Below are positions 756 through 54,862 of a stretch of 64,000 bases of DNA, piece by piece. The translations under genes and the position numbers were made by a program. The notes under the pieces were generated by a model. That model did not search any database and was not told the DNA's origin. It worked only from the letters and a program-made list of their open reading frames with translations. Location: assembly GCA_964635445.1 (NCBI GenBank), contig CAZWNK010000001.1, forward strand, positions 3,422 to 67,421, read 5' to 3'. Numbering within the stretch: position 1 is the stretch's first letter; each line of letters opens with the position of its first letter. Origin of the DNA: an uncultured Candidatus Saccharibacteria bacterium (GTDB lineage: Bacteria > Patescibacteriota > Saccharimonadia > Saccharimonadales > CAZDBS01).

Positions 756-1168
756 TATTTGCTCTCTTTCTTGGCACCATAGCGGCTGCGACGTTGTTTG
801 CGACCGTTGACACCTTGGAGGTCGAGCGTACCACGCACGATGTGATAGCGTACACCGGGGAGATCAGGCACGCGTCCACCACGAACAAGCACAACTGCAT
901 GCTCTTGGAGGTTATGGCCTTCCCCTGGGATATATGCCCAAACTTCATACCCATTCGTCAAACGTACACGAGCTACTTTGCGAAGTGCTGAGTTTGGTTT
1001 CTTTGGAGTTTTGGTCGTAACTTTGATACAGACACCGCGTTTGAATGGTCCTGGCTTCTCGTAGGATTTGACCTTGAGATTGTTGACCACGCGCTGCATA
1101 GCTGGTGACTTCGATTTCTTGGTCACCTTGGAACGAGGCTTGCGTACTAACTGATTGATTGTAGGCAC
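755..1168 (-). CDS. rpsL: 30S ribosomal protein S12
   Basis: 137 aa starting [12 protein letters not shown], with the [18 protein letters not shown] motif typical of S12. Confidence 0.95.
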
Positions 1169-1283
1169 TAGAAAATATTCCTTATCATTAAAGGTGATAG
1201 ATCGCAGGCACGAGCAGCACGTTCGATACCTGCAACCTTCCCCTGTTCACTTCTATTGAAACTCGTGGTAAATCTTACCAGAT

Positions 1284-51345: not shown

Positions 51346-52593
51346 TTATCCTACCACCCTGGCTAATTTTTCTGGTGCGATCAGGTCGTTGTCAAGCTGT
51401 TGGAGTACTTGTTGTTCTAGGGTCTTCATACTCATGTAGCGTGCAAAGATCTCATTCCACAGGCTTTCTCGGAAATGGTAAATGACTCGATCATGATACG
51501 GTGTCTTGGTAGAGTTAGAAATCGACACGTCCATCATATTGAATGCGACCGGGCGTTTCTCATACATCGCACCGACATAGTCGAGATCTTTCCAGAAAGC
51601 TAGTTCAGGATCGATTTCATACAGTACGTCCTCAGCTTTTCGCCAGTGCAGGTCTTCGGGTTGGACATGAGGTTCAAATATCTCTGGATGTCGCTCTTTT
51701 TCGAGCTTGCCAAAATAGCGCTGAATAACTCGCCAATGGATGTGCTGTCCAGCCATGACGGCAGCCGAAGCTGGATCAGCGATAAGGGTATCGACAAATA
51801 TTTGACCGAAATGAGAGGACGTACTTTTGAGTTTGAAAAAAGAGCTATAGAGTCGGATCTCGTTCATGTAATGAAACAGGAGCGATAGCGCGGTCATAGT
51901 GATCCCCGGGATTGTATCGACGGTGACTGGTAACATCAGAATCACGCCCAATTCTTTCAAGTGCGTAATGTTATGGCGCTTTTTATGCACGAATGCGTCA
52001 GCGATATCACCCCAGCGATCTTTCGGCATGATGACAATTTCTATTTTTCGTTTCTCGAAATCACTCGGCTTGAGCTTCTTGTAGTGCTCATCAAACTCAT
52101 TAAGCCACTCAGGTCCTTCGGCAAAACGCAGCGCGCCATAGATCTCGTACAAGCTTTCGTTTTTGATCATCGACTCGACCGACTGATATCCAAGTCGTTG
52201 CATGATCTGTGGCGGTGGCGTTGCGCGGAGCATGTCTCGAGCGACAGATTTCTTCAGCACCCAACAATCCTTGGGAATATCGACTCTATCTGCCGCTTTT
52301 TTGATCAACGGTATCAACTCTGCAACAGTGCTTTTGGATGAGCCTCCGATTTCTTTAGTGAGGTGCAGATCGTGCTTTCCTACCAAATGTCGCAATGCAT
52401 GATAGAGCTCCGTGCCAGTTGTATCTTTTGGATCGAGCCCCAACTCACGGGTCTTCATGTGAACTTTGCCGATGATTTCAGCAGTCAGACGCACATCGAC
52501 CGAAGTATTGCCCGACGCTTGCTCAAGTTGCTTCAAAGCCATAGAAAATAGTGGTTCTTTTGCTCCAAGCAAATCAGATAGAATTCGCGACAT
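51346..52593 (-). CDS. hypothetical protein (415 aa), no recognisable family
   Basis: Long ORF translationally coupled to the LOG-family gene (4-nt gap). Confidence 0.55.
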   Translation of the reverse strand: MSRILSDLLGAKEPLFSMALKQLEQASGNTSVDVRLTAEIIGKVHMKTRELGLDPKDTTGTELYHALRHLVGKHDLHLTKEIGGSSKSTVAELIPLIKKAADRVDIPKDCWVLKKSVARDMLRATPPPQIMQRLGYQSVESMIKNESLYEIYGALRFAEGPEWLNEFDEHYKKLKPSDFEKRKIEIVIMPKDRWGDIADAFVHKKRHNITHLKELGVILMLPVTVDTIPGITMTALSLLFHYMNEIRLYSSFFKLKSTSSHFGQIFVDTLIADPASAAVMAGQHIHWRVIQRYFGKLEKERHPEIFEPHVQPEDLHWRKAEDVLYEIDPELAFWKDLDYVGAMYEKRPVAFNMMDVSISNSTKTPYHDRVIYHFRESLWNEIFARYMSMKTLEQQVLQQLDNDLIAPEKLARVVG

Positions 52594-52969
52594 TACGTGT
52601 AGCCACCCTCGTTTTGGTTATGCTTATCTCTAGTATAACAAAGTGATGGAAGATAGAAACGATATATTGACGAAAATGACGAAAGGTACTATCATTTTGC
52701 TCAATTTCTGACGTTTTTCGTCGGGAGTACATTGACAATAGACGGACATGTAGACATGTGCTTTCTGGAGCGAAAGATTTGGCTTCAACAAGCGCATGTG
52801 TACATGCAAACAATCGGGATTGTGTAGCTAGACTCGAGCGGTCGAGAAGCTAAAATCAAGCGGACTGTCAATCCAAGTCTTGGGTTTGATCTGCTAAGGT
52901 AAGTCACGGTTCAGAAATAACCCTGACGATTTCCTGGGATCCACAATCCATCATCGTAGGTGAAGCATC

Positions 52970-53042
52970 GGCCCTGTACCTCAGTCGGCAGAGGACCTGT
53001 CTAAAAAACAGGAAGTCGGTGGATCAATACCACCCAGGGTCA
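52970..53042 (+). tRNA. tRNA-like sequence, Phe-type body with anticodon AAA and non-canonical T-loop (ATCAATA), no CCA; possible degenerate or pseudo tRNA
   Basis: Manual cloverleaf: GGCCCTG TA CCTC-AGTCGGCA-GAGG A CCTGT-CTAAAAA-ACAGG AAGTC GGTGG-ATCAATA-CCACC CAGGGTC A. Acceptor stem is 7 bp with one G-U pair. Confidence 0.4.
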
Positions 53043-53079
53043 CTGGATCTTCGGATCCTTGACGTAAACGCTTCACCTA

Positions 53080-53154
53080 GCGCGCTTGGCTCAGTGGCAG
53101 AGCATCACCTTGCCAAGGTGAGGGTCACGGGTTCGATTCCCGTAGTGCGCTCCA
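53080..53154 (+). tRNA. tRNA-Gly (anticodon GCC), 75 nt, CCA encoded
   Basis: Manual fold: GCGCGCT TG GCTC-AGTGGCA-GAGC A TCACC-TTGCCAA-GGTGA GGGTC ACGGG-TTCGATT-CCCGT AGTGCGC T CCA. Confidence 0.9.
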
Positions 53155-53173
53155 AGCAGCATCCGTGCTGCCC

Positions 53174-53259
53174 GGACTTGTAGCTCTTCGCTGTACAGCG
53201 AAGGAATAGAGCGTCGCCAACGAAGGCGAAGGTCGTAGGTTCGAATCCTACCAAGTCAG
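53174..53259 (+). pseudogene. degenerate tRNA-like sequence (Thr-like T-arm) with an 18-nt hairpin insertion in the D-loop, a 6-nt anticodon loop, a G1-A72 mismatch and CTA in place of CCA
   Basis: AAGGTCGTAGGTTCGAATCCTAC matches the tRNA-Thr T-arm. D-arm is GCTC[ttcgctgtacagcgaagg]AATAGAGC. Anticodon stem is TCGCC/GGCGA with loop AACGAA. Confidence 0.35.
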
Positions 53260-53261
53260 CT

Positions 53262-53836
53262 AGCTCGACCATCTCACTGGTTCCTGGCTCTCCCCCAGAG
53301 AGATGGTCGAGCACCCTCGTCCAGGTCGTCTTCATCGACCTCCCGATCGTCGCTCAGGCGACCTGGACACCCCGTTCCTCTCGTGGGATCACGTGAATCC
53401 GTCGTCACGCGTCATCTCACGAGAGGGACCAAGTGTAGTACCGGTGCTGCAGCTAGAGTGTTTGCTATCACTCGAAAGGCATTGTGCTCCATAGAGTCGC
53501 AACTATGTTGAGCTGGCTTGCTGCAGCACCATGCTTCACCCCGGGAGTGCCTGTGGGCATCGTACACGAGTGAATTCCTCCTCGTAAGGTGAATGAAGTC
53601 AATGTCACCTCGGTGCCCCAGGCACTCCCAAAGCAACGTACCGCGAGTACGGTTGACCACCTTGGTCCCTTCGCGCTACATTGCTTCACACGTATCCATA
53701 AGTGCATACCTTATGCTGATGAGCTGAAAACAGCGAAATACGAGTTAACAGAATCTAGAAGTCGGAATACAGAATCCAGAAATTGACTTGTAATAAATAA
53801 ACTTCTGGATTCCGAGATCCGGCTTCCGGCTTCTCA
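53262..53836. other. 575-bp ORF-free, highly structured non-coding region: candidate large structured ncRNA (strand undetermined)
   Basis: Five perfect long inverted repeats in series: 53266-53275/53298-53309; 53321-53328/53359-53366; 53377-53385/53418-53426; 53443-53453/53520-53530; 53544-53553/53619-53628. Only short overlapping ORFs with no coding signal. Confidence 0.35.
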
Positions 53837-54862
53837 TTAGAGCGCTATGCGCTCTATAGGCATATCGTGTAACTGTGTATCAAGTCTGATAATCCCTGGT
53901 TTCGCACCGACAACACCAACAACTGATGTTGAGTTGGCGCTTGCATAGGTGAGTGCCTTTTCGGTCGACTCGCCGCGAGCGATCATCGCCACAAACCCGG
54001 AACTAAACGCATCACCTGCTCCAAGTCGATCGACAACGGGGACGTCTTCATAGATCCCGGCCTTATACAGCGCTTCATGGTCTCGTGCGACGACCCCGTT
54101 CGGCCCATCAGTGATGACGACATACGGGATTTCGTGTGCTGCACGTGCCAGATCCTCCATGGATTCACCCTGGTACAGTTTTTGCATTTCTTCTTTGTTC
54201 AGCGACAGAACATCGATTTTGGGTAGAAGCATTTTCATTCTATCTGCTTGTTCCAGTTCATCATTGCCAGGATTCATCGCTATTTTCATACCCAATTTGT
54301 GAGCGGTGTTGACGAGATACTCCAGTACCTCCATATTCCCCGCCAAACTCGTAACGTACAGCCATTGCGCATGCAGGTGAGCTTCGGGATAGTCCGAGAT
54401 CTCGTGTGTATGCGCAGCTCCTCGGTAAATGAGGATCGTCCGTTCACCATCACCGTTGAGTAATATGGTCGAGTATTGCGTGCCAAGTGACTGATGATAG
54501 ACCACCCGTGAAGTATCAACATTATCTTCAGCAAGCGCATGGATGATATTTGTCGCCGCACTATCATGACCGAGCTTACCAGCGAAAGCAGCGTGGAGAC
54601 CAGCTCTCGCGAATGTCACTGCAGCGTTACTCGCACCCCCGCCAGTCCCAAATGTGATGCGATCGACTTCCAGTTTGGCACCGAGTGGAAACTGCTCGGC
54701 ACATTCTTTGGTCTCAGGATTACACACCGCAGAAATTGTCTCGCCCTGCAGATACACGTCCTGGGAAGCTGCTCCGATAGCGATGATAGACATGTCGGGA
54801 TGGTCCATAATGTTCAAGTTAAGCATAACAAATTTGCTACAATTATGAGTAATGTCATTCAC
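53837..54862 (-). CDS. PfkB/ribokinase-family carbohydrate kinase
   Basis: C-terminal GAGDAFSSGFV anion-hole/catalytic motif and an N-terminal GG motif. The start may be an internal Met. Confidence 0.8.
   Translation of the reverse strand: MNDITHNCSKFVMLNLNIMDHPDMSIIAIGAASQDVYLQGETISAVCNPETKECAEQFPLGAKLEVDRITFGTGGGASNAAVTFARAGLHAAFAGKLGHDSAATNIIHALAEDNVDTSRVVYHQSLGTQYSTILLNGDGERTILIYRGAAHTHEISDYPEAHLHAQWLYVTSLAGNMEVLEYLVNTAHKLGMKIAMNPGNDELEQADRMKMLLPKIDVLSLNKEEMQKLYQGESMEDLARAAHEIPYVVITDGPNGVVARDHEALYKAGIYEDVPVVDRLGAGDAFSSGFVAMIARGESTEKALTYASANSTSVVGVVGAKPGIIRLDTQLHDMPIERIAL

What the first reader, a model, noticed from the sequence alone, without database searches (positions are those of the whole stretch)
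52970..53259. tRNA-Gly flanked by two non-canonical tRNA-like sequences (Phe-like with anticodon AAA; Thr-like with D-loop hairpin insertion)
52970-53042 folds as a clean cloverleaf with a tRNA-Phe-like D-arm and anticodon loop CTAAAAA, giving anticodon AAA (A34 is essentially unused outside tRNA-Arg-ACG). It also has an odd T-loop (ATCAATA) and no CCA. 53174-53259 has a Thr-like T-arm and acceptor but carries an 18-nt perfect hairpin inside the D-loop, a 6-nt anticodon loop, a 1-72 mismatch and CTA instead of CCA. A tRNA gene is a classical integration target, so these could be decayed tRNA duplicates from integration or excision events. They could also be unusual but functional tRNAs or tRNA-like regulatory decoys.
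Basis: seen in the sequence. Interest (0 to 1): 0.55.

Follow-up and report, generated by a model that had tools for sequence, protein, structure and literature searches.

The report
Remodelled tRNA-shaped genes in a Saccharibacteria operon
A normal glycine tRNA gene in a Saccharibacteria (TM7) genome sits between a well-folded phenylalanine-type tRNA with the rare anticodon AAA and a tRNA-shaped RNA that cannot read codons, and similar non-decoding tRNA look-alikes turn up in the tRNA operons of other Saccharibacteria, so they look like maintained RNAs and not integration scars.

Summary
On the + strand lie tL1 (52970-53042, Rfam tRNA 60.5 bits, anticodon AAA), a canonical tRNA-Gly(GCC) (53080-53154) and tL3 (53174-53259, 35.7 bits). 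tL3 has a palindromic hairpin in its D-loop, a 6-nt anticodon loop, a G1/A72 mismatch and a CUA tail. The sequence is identical in three independent assemblies.

The interpretation needs revising.
- The host is a Candidatus Saccharibacteria chromosome.
- tL1's "odd" T-loop (A54/A60) is the normal tRNA-Phe T-loop in Actinomycetota and Saccharibacteria. tL1 is a Phe-scaffold tRNA with G34->A and a flipped 10-25 pair.
- tL3 is closest to Arg(ACG)/Asn scaffolds, not Thr.
- No repeats, integrase or similarity to tRNA-Gly support an integration origin.

Five other Saccharibacteria carry comparable tRNA operons. There, perfect cloverleaves have 6-nt or tetraloop "anticodon" arms or D-loop hairpin inserts, and they keep their stems through compensatory changes. 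The spacers are hairpin-rich, like the 570 nt after tL3 (z = -11).

My best reading is a co-transcribed operon in which tL3, and perhaps tL1, are kept for their tRNA shape as processing handles and not for decoding. Recent pseudogenes, or a working tRNA-Phe(AAA/IAA), are not excluded. I could not check whether this genome also has a tRNA-Phe(GAA).

The parts
52829..52856 (+). Promoter-like site (TAGACT-16-TAAAAT) about 115 nt upstream of tL1. A second site lies at 52667-52695.
   Evidence: Consensus scan only. Not evidence of function.
52957..52966 (+). 5' arm of a 10-bp perfect inverted repeat that brackets tL1 (TAGGTGAAGC).
   Evidence: I15. It forms in the MFE fold of the 52860-53320 precursor. 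On its own it is near chance frequency for a 1.6-kb region.
52970..53042 (+). tL1: a Phe-scaffold tRNA with anticodon AAA, a C10-G25 pair, T-loop AUCAAUA, A73 and no encoded CCA.
53045..53058 (+). Spacer hairpin GGAUC-UUCG-GAUCC (UNCG tetraloop).
53070..53079 (+). 3' arm of the bracket repeat (GCTTCACCTA). It abuts the first base of tRNA-Gly.
53080..53154 (+). Canonical tRNA-Gly(GCC) with U73 and encoded CCA.
   Evidence: It matches annotated tRNA-Gly genes in phages and plasmids.
53156..53171 (+). Spacer hairpin GCAGCA-UCCG-UGCUGC (UNCG tetraloop).
53174..53259 (+). tL3: a non-decoding tRNA-shaped RNA on an Arg(ACG)/Asn-type scaffold. The D-loop palindrome is at 53187-53202 and G18-G19 are kept. 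The anticodon loop is 6 nt (AACGAA, 53219-53224). G1 and A72 are mismatched, and G73 is followed by CUA.
53263..53834 (+). A run of six or seven long, unique hairpins and Y-shaped modules with no ORF support. The last, AT-rich hairpin (53750-53834) is probably a terminator shared with the convergent pfkB gene.
   Evidence: MFE z = -11.1 on the + strand and -11.6 on the - strand. Six of the 17 long inverted repeats of the whole 64-kb window lie here. No Rfam hit over 52600-53700. No similarity in phages or plasmids.

Best explanation
The 1.24-kb gap between the 415-aa gene and pfkB holds a Saccharibacteria-type tRNA operon that is probably transcribed as one precursor: tL1, then tRNA-Gly(GCC), then tL3, then a hairpin-rich tail.

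- Only tRNA-Gly is an ordinary decoder.
- tL3 is a tRNA-derived RNA on an Arg(ACG)/Asn-type scaffold. It has lost decoding ability: the anticodon loop is 6 nt with no U33, and a hairpin sits in the D-loop. It still keeps every feature of the tRNA 'top half' and elbow, namely the acceptor stem, T-arm, D-stem and G18-G19.
- tL1 is a copy of the lineage's tRNA-Phe with G34->A and a flipped 10-25 pair. It is structurally perfect, and it is either a weak auxiliary decoder or on the same path away from decoding.

Proposed mechanism (inferred, not shown): the cloverleaves are kept because RNase P, RNase Z and the 3'-end enzymes recognise tRNA shape. They would act as processing handles that cut the precursor, releasing tRNA-Gly and the structured spacer and tail RNAs. 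Under that role selection acts on the helices and the elbow but not on the anticodon loop.

Shown: the elements, their intact stems, their identity across three assemblies, their scaffold affinities, and the recurrence of anticodon-less cloverleaves and structured spacers in other Saccharibacteria operons.
Inferred: co-transcription, processing, and lack of decoding by tL1.
For: 1. Host and setting. Homologues of the flanking 415-aa protein are named Candidatus Saccharibacteria.

2. tL1 is a Phe scaffold.
- 29 of its 40 nearest tRNAs among 575 distinct tRNAs are tRNA-Phe, and the closest is the Saccharibacteria tRNA-Phe(GAA) of L128. blastn identity to L128 is 77%.
- Its A54/A60 T-loop is the family norm.

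3. Same kind of operon elsewhere.
- L254 has Phe(GAA) followed by Gly(GCC).
- L128 has Phe(GAA) followed 4 nt later by a cloverleaf with a 6-nt loop, G73 and a CUA tail, like tL3.
- L255 has a cloverleaf with an insert of about 36 nt in its 44-nt D-loop and a C(UUCG)G tetraloop in place of the anticodon loop.
- L256 has a long arm capped by UCCG.
- RNAfold alone folds each of these as a cloverleaf.

4. Structure is maintained.
- All elements keep 20-21 of 21 stem pairs.
- The positional orthologues L128-b and L251-b differ by compensatory pairs: U1-A72 against C1-G72, U6-A67 against C6-G67, A50-U64 against G50-C64, and G29-C41 against A29-U41. Their loops differ (6 nt GGACGC against CGGUUAG).

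5. Enrichment. ARAGORN reports non-7-nt anticodon loops for 3 distinct genes in the few Saccharibacteria loci, against 2 among 974 tRNAs from the actinobacterial and viral loci. tL3 and L255-a are extra cases that ARAGORN misses.

6. Structured spacers are shared. The window tail has z = -11, and other operons give z = -5.0, -4.2 and -6.4. UNCG hairpins sit in both window spacers.

7. 3' ends. The two canonical tRNAs of the window (Gly and Leu-UAG) encode CCA, and tL1 and tL3 do not.

8. Codon use. Both Phe codons are common (UUU 340, UUC 280). UUC needs G34 or I34, which argues that a GAA gene exists elsewhere.
Against: - There are no expression or end-mapping data, so co-transcription and processing are untested.
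- The nearest relatives (about 70% protein identity) have no tRNAs at this site. No close relative was available, so conservation of tL1 and tL3 themselves could not be measured. The comparison operons are at a different locus in distant Saccharibacteria, and apart from the tRNA parts they share no alignable sequence with the window.
- tL3 carries several changes that would fit a recent pseudogene: the insert, the 1-nt-short loop, the 1-72 mismatch, and CUA one transition away from CCA.
- In the MFE fold of tL3 the palindrome extends into the D-stem and competes with it.
- tL1 has a fully canonical 7-nt loop with U33 and A37. A G34A tRNA-Phe is expressed, matured and active in E. coli (bioRxiv 10.64898/2026.05.15.725136), so it may simply be a working tRNA.
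- The bracket stem around tL1 is a 10-bp repeat of a size expected about once by chance in this region.
Confidence: 0.42

Rival explanations
1. Recent pseudogenes. tL1 and tL3 are redundant tRNA gene copies that have just begun to decay (G34A; loop deletion, hairpin insertion, CCA->CUA) and have no function of their own.
For: - tL3 has four separate departures from a working tRNA.
- Neither element encodes CCA, while the canonical tRNAs here do.
- The cluster is absent from the syntenic site in relatives at about 70% identity, so it may be evolutionarily young.
- tL1 differs from all 116 genuine Phe genes of the scan at position 10.
Against: - 41 of 42 stem pairs in tL1 and tL3 are intact. Relative to Saccharibacteria Phe genes, the changes at tL1's pairs 10-25, 3-70, 4-69 and 5-68 are double, compensatory flips.
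- The insert is a perfect palindrome placed so that G18-G19 survive.
- Analogous anticodon-less cloverleaves persist with compensatory changes across species whose CysRS is only about 71-76% identical.
Confidence: 0.25
2. tL1 is a working tRNA-Phe. It either reads UUU as an unmodified A34 tRNA alongside a GAA gene elsewhere, or it is deaminated to I34 and reads UUU and UUC. It could even be the only tRNA-Phe of the genome.
For: - Perfect cloverleaf, 7-nt loop with U33, A35, A36, A37 and A73, and the lineage-typical T-loop.
- It sits at the head of the operon, where relatives have Phe(GAA), and is followed by Gly(GCC) as in L254.
- The sequence is stable across three assemblies.
- In E. coli a chromosomal pheV G34A tRNA is matured, apparently A-to-I edited, and rescues loss of pheV. 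Phe-AAA genes exist in a small number of genomes in GtRNAdb.
Against: - G34 and G10 are PheRS recognition nucleotides in E. coli (my own knowledge, not tested here), and both are changed.
- G10 is present in all 116 genuine Phe genes of the scan.
- No CCA is encoded, although the canonical tRNAs here encode it.
- I34 would also read UUA, which is a Leu codon used 120 times in the window's ORFs.
- Over-expressed Phe-AAA was deleterious in E. coli.
Confidence: 0.3
3. Integration or excision scars. A mobile element used tRNA-Gly as its attachment site and left partial tRNA duplicates on both sides.
For: tRNA genes are classical attachment sites, and the intergenic region is expanded compared with L001, where the two flanking genes are 38 bp apart.
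Against: - tL1 and tL3 are complete cloverleaves of other isotypes, not 3' fragments of tRNA-Gly.
- The similarity between Gly and tL3 is limited to the generic T-arm at 77%.
- There are no flanking direct repeats and no integrase or other mobile-element genes nearby.
- The region has no match in phages or plasmids apart from tRNA-Gly itself and generic tRNA-Asn/Arg matches to tL3.
Confidence: 0.03
4. Trans-acting tRNA mimics. The anticodon-less cloverleaves act away from the ribosome. They could be dedicated aminoacyl carriers for cell-wall or lipid aminoacylation, or decoys for tRNA-targeting nucleases or modification enzymes.
For: - Several comparison elements carry G3.U70, the AlaRS determinant, with non-Ala or absent anticodons (L128-b, L251-b, L255-a).
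- tL3 keeps A20, C35 and G36, which are ArgRS determinants (my own knowledge).
- The elbow and acceptor arm are conserved throughout.
Against: - tL3 itself has A3-U70 and a mismatched 1-72 pair.
- No Fem/MprF-type or Ro-type gene is adjacent.
- This is purely inferential.
Confidence: 0.1

Closest known systems
Bacterial elongator tRNA-Phe(GAA), Actinomycetota/Saccharibacteria type
   Same: tL1 shares the 73-nt architecture, the D-loop AGUYGGCA, A35, A36, A37, A38, a 5-nt variable loop, the T-loop A54-U55-C56-R57-A58-Y59-A60, and A73.
   Different: tL1 has A34 in place of G34, C10-G25 in place of G10-Y25, A26, and a different but fully paired acceptor stem.
Rare bacterial tRNA genes with A-starting anticodons (Phe-tRNA-AAA in GtRNAdb; engineered pheV G34A in E. 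coli; bioRxiv 10.64898/2026.05.15.725136)
   Same: The anticodon is the same, one mutation away from the native GAA gene, on a native Phe scaffold.
   Different: tL1 is found in a candidate phyla radiation (CPR) bacterium, carries an extra change at the conserved position 10, and lies in an operon with non-decoding cloverleaves. Its modification and activity are unknown.
tRNA-like non-coding RNAs processed by tRNA enzymes (mascRNA from MALAT1; plant mitochondrial t-elements; bacterial YrlA Y-RNA-like RNAs, Rfam RF02553; the tRNA-like domain of tmRNA)
   Same: The acceptor arm, T-arm and elbow are kept while the anticodon arm is shortened, capped or replaced, so the RNA is recognised by shape and not by codon reading.
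   Different: tL3 and its analogues have free tRNA-type ends inside ordinary tRNA operons. No Ro-protein gene is nearby, and the only YrlA model match, in L128, was far below its threshold (21 bits against 69). No processing data exist.
tRNA pseudogenes
   Same: Loss of a 7-nt anticodon loop, an insertion, and an altered 3' tail.
   Different: The stems are almost perfectly preserved, and comparable elements persist across deep species divergence with compensatory changes.
Intervening sequences (hairpin expansions) in rRNA genes, which are frequent in CPR bacteria and elsewhere are removed by RNase III
   Same: A self-complementary hairpin is inserted into a loop of a structured RNA without disturbing the neighbouring helices (tL3 D-loop, L255-a D-loop).
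   Different: The host RNA is a tRNA-shaped molecule and the insert is only 16-36 nt. Excision is not known. The link is an inference from my own knowledge.

Membership tests
tRNA (Rfam RF00005) | Covariance-model score at or above the gathering score of 29 bits | tested here: met
   tL1 scores 60.5 bits, Gly 68.2 bits and tL3 35.7 bits.
tRNA (decoding-competent) | 7-nt anticodon loop with U33 and a purine at position 37 | tested here: not met
   tL3 has a 6-nt loop, AACGAA, without U33. tL1 does meet this feature with CUAAAAA.
tRNA (decoding-competent) | Mature 3' CCA end and aminoacylation | not testable with these tools
   CCA is not encoded in tL1 (A73-CUG) or tL3 (G73-CUA). It is encoded in the window's Gly and Leu tRNAs. 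Post-transcriptional addition is unknown.
tRNA-Phe | Scaffold similarity to genuine tRNA-Phe genes of the lineage, including the T-loop | tested here: met
   29 of the top 40 neighbours are Phe. The A54/A60 T-loop is shared with more than 110 Phe(GAA) genes.
tRNA-Phe | Anticodon GAA (G34 is a PheRS identity element) and G10 | tested here: not met
   tL1 has A34 and C10. All 116 genuine Phe genes in the scan have G34 and G10.
   The top 40 neighbours are Asn 17, Arg 11, Asp 6, with no Thr. The listed phage matches are annotated tRNA-Asn or tRNA-Arg.
Integration-site (att) tRNA duplications | A near-identical copy of the 3' part of the target tRNA, flanking direct repeats, and an integrase or mobile element nearby | tested here: not met
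YrlA / bacterial Y RNA | A model match at threshold and an adjacent Ro60 (rsr) gene | tested here: not met
   No YrlA match in the window region at E up to 10. The neighbours are housekeeping genes.
Archaeal-type tRNA intron (bulge-helix-bulge) | A 4-bp helix flanked by two 3-nt bulges at the insert boundaries | tested here: not met
   The tL3 insert is a perfect palindrome with no bulges. This was judged by inspection only.
Saccharibacteria operon cloverleaves without a reading loop (a provisional class defined here) | An intact acceptor stem, D-stem and T-arm with G18-G19, a non-7-nt or capped anticodon arm and/or a D-loop hairpin, located in a tRNA operon with structured spacers | tested here: met
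   tL3 meets all of these. The comparison members are L128-b, L128-c, L255-a and L256-a.

The most novel reading that the evidence does not exclude
Saccharibacteria maintain a class of anticodon-less, tRNA-shaped RNAs that have a function of their own beyond punctuating a precursor. tL3 would be one member, and L128-b, L128-c, L255-a and L256-a would be others. Possible roles are dedicated aminoacyl carriers (several carry the AlaRS mark G3.U70) or decoys for tRNA-targeting enzymes. In the same vein, tL1 could be an I34 tRNA-Phe that serves as the organism's main or only Phe decoder.
Probability: 0.18. Interest if true: 0.75.

Novelty: new variant of a known kind. Interest (0 to 1): 0.5.

Why it matters
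Saccharibacteria and other candidate phyla radiation (CPR) bacteria have tiny genomes, so RNA genes that no longer decode yet keep a perfect tRNA shape are unlikely to be kept by accident.

- If they are processing handles, they show a tRNA-punctuation logic in a bacterial phylum, like the one in mitochondria and around MALAT1. They would also point to unknown structured RNAs in the spacers.
- If they are charged or bound by proteins, they would be a new class of bacterial tRNA mimic.
- For annotation, the result has two practical uses. An A54/A60 T-loop is normal for tRNA-Phe in several phyla. Standard tRNA finders both over-call and miss these elements: ARAGORN calls Phe-AAA and '???', and it misses tL3 and L255-a.
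- A naturally occurring tRNA-Phe(AAA) on a native scaffold is also a useful test case for the question of why A34 tRNAs are so rare.

Tried and rejected
1. Synteny through the flanking 415-aa protein. Relatives at about 70% identity (L001-L005) have no tRNA and no similar sequence at the site. The only closer contigs are the same species.

2. Genome-collection scan with a Phe-like pattern that left position 34 free. It did explain the T-loop and gave L128.

3. Metagenome scan with the Saccharibacteria-type Phe T-arm. It gave only two contigs (L249, L250) from an AT-rich, unrelated organism.

4. Viral scans. There was no AAA/A54 tRNA, and a looser pattern gave only chance hits. The tL3 acceptor pattern turned out to be the ordinary tRNA-Asn signature (U1-A72, G73) and saturated the scan.

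5. CysRS-anchored look-ups at 59-62% identity (L252, L253) had no tRNA operon next to cysS.

6. The ARAGORN 'tRNA-Phe(aaa)' at 1161-1243 is a false positive. It has no Rfam support and no cloverleaf.

7. The idea that the D-loop palindrome is a repeated mobile element was rejected, because there is a single copy in the window.

8. I looked for homology between the window's hairpin tail and the spacers of the other operons and found none outside the tRNAs. I aligned a conserved Y-shaped spacer module from four operons but did not build a model from it, because four sequences from distant species seemed too few.

9. Literature searches for tRNA-like RNAs in Saccharibacteria or Patescibacteria returned nothing.

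10. I could not determine whether this genome has a tRNA-Phe(GAA), tRNA-Arg(ACG), tRNA-Asn(GUU) or TadA, because only 64 kb of it is available.
Full report
**What is there.** The + strand of the 1.24-kb gap between a 415-aa ORF (51346-52593, -) and pfkB (53837-54862, -) carries three tRNA-shaped genes.
- tL1 (52970-53042) is called tRNA-Phe(aaa) by ARAGORN and scores 60.5 bits with the Rfam tRNA model.
- tRNA-Gly(GCC) (53080-53154) scores 68.2 bits.
- tL3 (53174-53259) is missed by ARAGORN and by Rfam's default filters, but scores 35.7 bits (gathering score 29, E = 1.4e-5) in the sensitive scan.

RNAfold alone gives the cloverleaf for tL1 (z = -3.1). For tL3 it gives the acceptor, anticodon and T arms, but the palindrome extends into the D-stem and displaces it (z = -3.5).

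- For tL1: the loop CUAAAAA, the T-loop AUCAAUA and no CCA.
- For tL3: a perfect 16-nt palindrome (18 nt with the flanking C and G) in a 22-nt D-loop, a 6-nt loop AACGAA, a G1/A72 mismatch and G73-CUA.

Two other assemblies of the same species are identical across the cluster. The only two differences in 1.6 kb lie upstream, at 52571 and 52626. These are therefore real genomic features.

**Host and setting.** Homologues of the 415-aa protein are named Candidatus Saccharibacteria or Saccharimonadales. The neighbours are housekeeping genes: gatCAB, uvrB, a LOG-like gene, pfkB, transaldolase and aldolase. Relatives at about 70% protein identity keep pfkB next to the 415-aa gene but have no tRNA and no similar DNA there. 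The cluster is therefore not syntenic with its nearest available relatives.

**tL1 is a lineage-typical tRNA-Phe scaffold with A34.**
Of the matches, 116 are genuine tRNA-Phe(GAA) genes, from Acidimicrobiia, Cellulomonas, Bifidobacteriaceae, Actinomycetaceae and Omnitrophota, plus one Candidatus Saccharibacteria genome, L128.
- The "odd" T-loop with A54 and A60 is therefore the normal tRNA-Phe T-loop in these phyla. It is also present in the Saccharibacteria Phe genes of L251 and L254.
- What is unique to tL1 is A34, a flipped C10-G25 pair (all 116 scan genes have G10), and A26.
- Its acceptor stem differs from the Saccharibacteria Phe genes by double, pair-preserving changes. All 21 stem pairs are intact.

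**Can AAA decode?**
- Both Phe codons are heavily used in the window's ORFs (UUU 340, UUC 280). UUC needs G34 or I34.
- A recent preprint reports that tRNAs with A-starting anticodons are very rare. Phe-AAA is nevertheless among the few found in two-fold codon boxes in GtRNAdb. An E. coli chromosomal pheV G34A tRNA is matured, apparently A-to-I edited, and complements loss of pheV, whereas over-expression is harmful.
- tL1 could therefore work as a tRNA.
- Against that, it has lost G34 and G10, which are PheRS recognition nucleotides in E. coli (my own knowledge). It also lacks the encoded CCA that both canonical tRNAs of this window have (Gly and Leu-UAG).
- I could not see the rest of the genome, so whether a GAA gene exists is open.

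**tL3 is not Thr-like.**
- With the insert removed, its nearest scaffolds are tRNA-Arg(ACG) (57 of 70 identical to a phage gene) and tRNA-Asn. The Arg gene shares GGAAU(U)UA-GAGC-G-UC and has the loop CUACGAA, against AACGAA in tL3.
- The listed matches in annotated phage records are tRNA-Asn or tRNA-Arg.
- The A72-G73 ending with a UGUAGCUC 5' part is the ordinary tRNA-Asn signature.
- A 6-nt loop without U33 cannot decode normally.

**The same style of element recurs in other Saccharibacteria.** In L128, tRNA-Phe(GAA) is followed after 4 nt by a perfect cloverleaf, L128-b. It has U1-A72, G73, a CUA tail like tL3, G3.U70, and an anticodon arm of 6 bp capped by GACG. After that comes a tRNA-Asp scaffold, L128-c, with a 6-nt loop.

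I used the CysRS gene next to that operon to fetch relatives and found the same locus, a DEAD-box helicase gene, then the operon, then a convergent cysS, with varied content:
- L254 has Phe(GAA) followed by Gly(GCC), the same order as in the window.
- L251 has Phe(GAA) followed by a cloverleaf with loop CGGUUAG, which has G33 and no G18-G19.
- L255 starts with a cloverleaf whose 44-nt D-loop carries a hairpin insert of about 36 nt upstream of G18-G19, as in tL3. Its anticodon loop is replaced by a C(UUCG)G tetraloop.
- L256 starts with a cloverleaf whose anticodon arm is a long helix capped by UCCG.

RNAfold alone recovers each cloverleaf, and each keeps 20-21 of 21 stem pairs.

L128-b and L251-b occupy the same position in genomes whose CysRS is 71% identical. 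They differ by compensatory pairs in the acceptor, anticodon and T stems, while their loops differ in length and sequence. That pattern indicates selection on shape and not on the anticodon.

ARAGORN flags non-7-nt loops in 3 distinct genes from these few loci, against 2 among 974 tRNAs from the actinobacterial and viral loci.

**Structured spacers.**
- The 570 nt after tL3 (53263-53834) is a chain of long, unique hairpins and Y-shaped modules. The MFE z-score is -11 on either strand.
- Six of the 17 long inverted repeats of the whole 64-kb window lie in this stretch.
- There was no Rfam match over 52600-53700 and no match in phages or plasmids.
- Spacers of the other operons are structured as well (z = -5.0, -4.2, -6.4). 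They contain conserved modules.
- In the window, both short spacers hold UNCG-capped hairpins. A 10-bp perfect repeat brackets tL1 and ends exactly at the first base of tRNA-Gly. A 10-bp repeat is close to chance expectation in this region.

**Interpretation.** The integration-scar idea fails. tL1 and tL3 are complete cloverleaves of other isotypes and not fragments of tRNA-Gly, and there are no repeats or mobile genes.

The best-supported reading is a Saccharibacteria-type tRNA operon in which tRNA-Gly is the ordinary decoder and tL3 is a maintained, non-decoding, tRNA-shaped RNA. tL1 is a structurally perfect Phe paralogue that has left, or is leaving, normal decoding.

The most economical mechanism is that these cloverleaves serve as RNase P and RNase Z handles that cut the precursor and free the neighbouring RNAs. 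This is inferred from what is conserved (acceptor stem, T-arm, D-stem, G18-G19) and what is free to vary (the anticodon arm and D-loop inserts). It is also inferred from known precedents such as mascRNA and mitochondrial punctuation.

I put this at about 0.4. Recent pseudogenes (0.25), a working tRNA-Phe(AAA/IAA) (0.3, not exclusive of the reading for tL3) and trans-acting mimics (0.1) remain open.

**Limits.**
- There are no expression data.
- No close relative carries the cluster.
- The comparison operons are distant and at another locus.
- I found no paper on such elements in this phylum in the searched library. That is weak evidence of novelty.

Noticed in passing
window 53263-53834: A 570-nt non-coding stretch made of six or seven long, unique hairpins and Y-shaped modules (MFE z = -11 on both strands). 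It holds six of the 17 long inverted repeats of the whole window and has no Rfam, phage or plasmid match. It could be one or several unknown structured RNAs matured from the tRNA precursor.
   Followed up: partly
L128:2073-2175(-), and the equivalent stretches in L254 and L251 (region positions about 290-395): A conserved element of about 93-110 nt lies between the Phe (or 'b') gene and the next tRNA (GUAUCAGAGAGAUAGCUC...CUCUCUCGCC). It folds as a degenerate cloverleaf with a 6-bp acceptor stem, a D-arm without GG, a long anticodon arm, and a 4-bp T-arm with an 11-nt loop.
   Followed up: partly
L128, L254, L251 and L255 operon spacers (alignment A2): A conserved Y-shaped module (a closing stem with two hairpins...GGAUCCAAUAUCC...CUCGGAAUCGAAACCGAG...), often preceded by CUCCACCAUCGC. 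The closing stem varies in sequence between species but is still predicted to pair. Function unknown.
   Followed up: partly
L128:1672-1767(-), L254:4457-4554(-), L251:6469-6572(-), L255:4461-4547(-), L256:4454-4538(-): The long-variable-arm (type II, Ser/Leu-like) tRNA that ends each operon carries a different anticodon-loop triplet in each species: CAGCUAA (GCU, with A33), CUCUUAA (CUU), UUGAAAA (GAA) and CAGUCAA (GUC, with A33). SerRS and LeuRS do not read the anticodon, so these could be remoulded or mis-incorporating tRNAs, or again non-decoders.
   Followed up: partly
L128:1999-2073(-): L128-c is 68 of 72 identical to actinobacterial tRNA-Asp(GUC), but its loop reads UUGACAC where the canonical loop is CUGUCAA. 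UUGACA is the reverse complement of UGUCAA, which suggests a small hairpin-loop inversion. The near-identity to actinobacterial tRNA-Asp, and the shared Phe T-loop, might reflect exchange with actinobacterial hosts or shared ancestry.
   Followed up: no
L010-L128 (genome scan) and L249: An A54...A60 T-loop (GGAUCGAYACC) is the standard tRNA-Phe T-loop in many Actinomycetota (Acidimicrobiia, Cellulomonas, Bifidobacteriaceae, Actinomycetaceae), in Omnitrophota and in an AT-rich organism (L249). It resembles the A54/A60 feature of eukaryotic initiator tRNA.
   Followed up: partly
window 1161-1243: ARAGORN reports a second 'tRNA-Phe(aaa)' here. It has no Rfam support, no acceptor stem and no cloverleaf on folding, so it is a false positive.
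   Followed up: yes
L170:16-100 (IMG/VR contig 3300044608_001275): A tRNA-Asn-like gene (U1-A72, G73, CUA tail) with a 14-16-nt hairpin (CCCGAG-GACG-CUUGGG) inserted just 5' of GUUAA in the anticodon loop. It carries the same GACG-capped hairpin as the anticodon arm of L128-b.
   Followed up: no
L129-L244 (many contigs of IMG/VR sample 3300045988): Large phage contigs carry a tRNA-Arg(ACG) built on a tRNA-Asn-like scaffold (UGACAUG...CAUGUCA-G73, loop CUACGGA).
   Followed up: no
L249:386-617: An SRP RNA (Rfam 47.9 bits) sits directly between tRNA-Val and tRNA-Arg with essentially no spacer. This is an example of a non-coding RNA whose ends would be made by tRNA-processing enzymes. The contig also has tRNA-Thr(AGU) and a tmRNA.
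   Followed up: no
L254:5076-5150(-) and L251:7088-7161(-): Even the 'canonical' Saccharibacteria tRNA-Phe(GAA) genes are slightly odd. L254 has an extra C bulged in the acceptor stem. L251 has the loop GUGAAGA (G32, G37) with a C31/A39 mismatch.
   Followed up: no
window 51346-52593 (-): A 415-aa protein with no Pfam domain is conserved at 66-72% identity in more than 3,000 Saccharibacteria-type sequences. It usually sits between pfkB and a LOG-like (SLOG cluster 4) gene. Function unknown.
   Followed up: no
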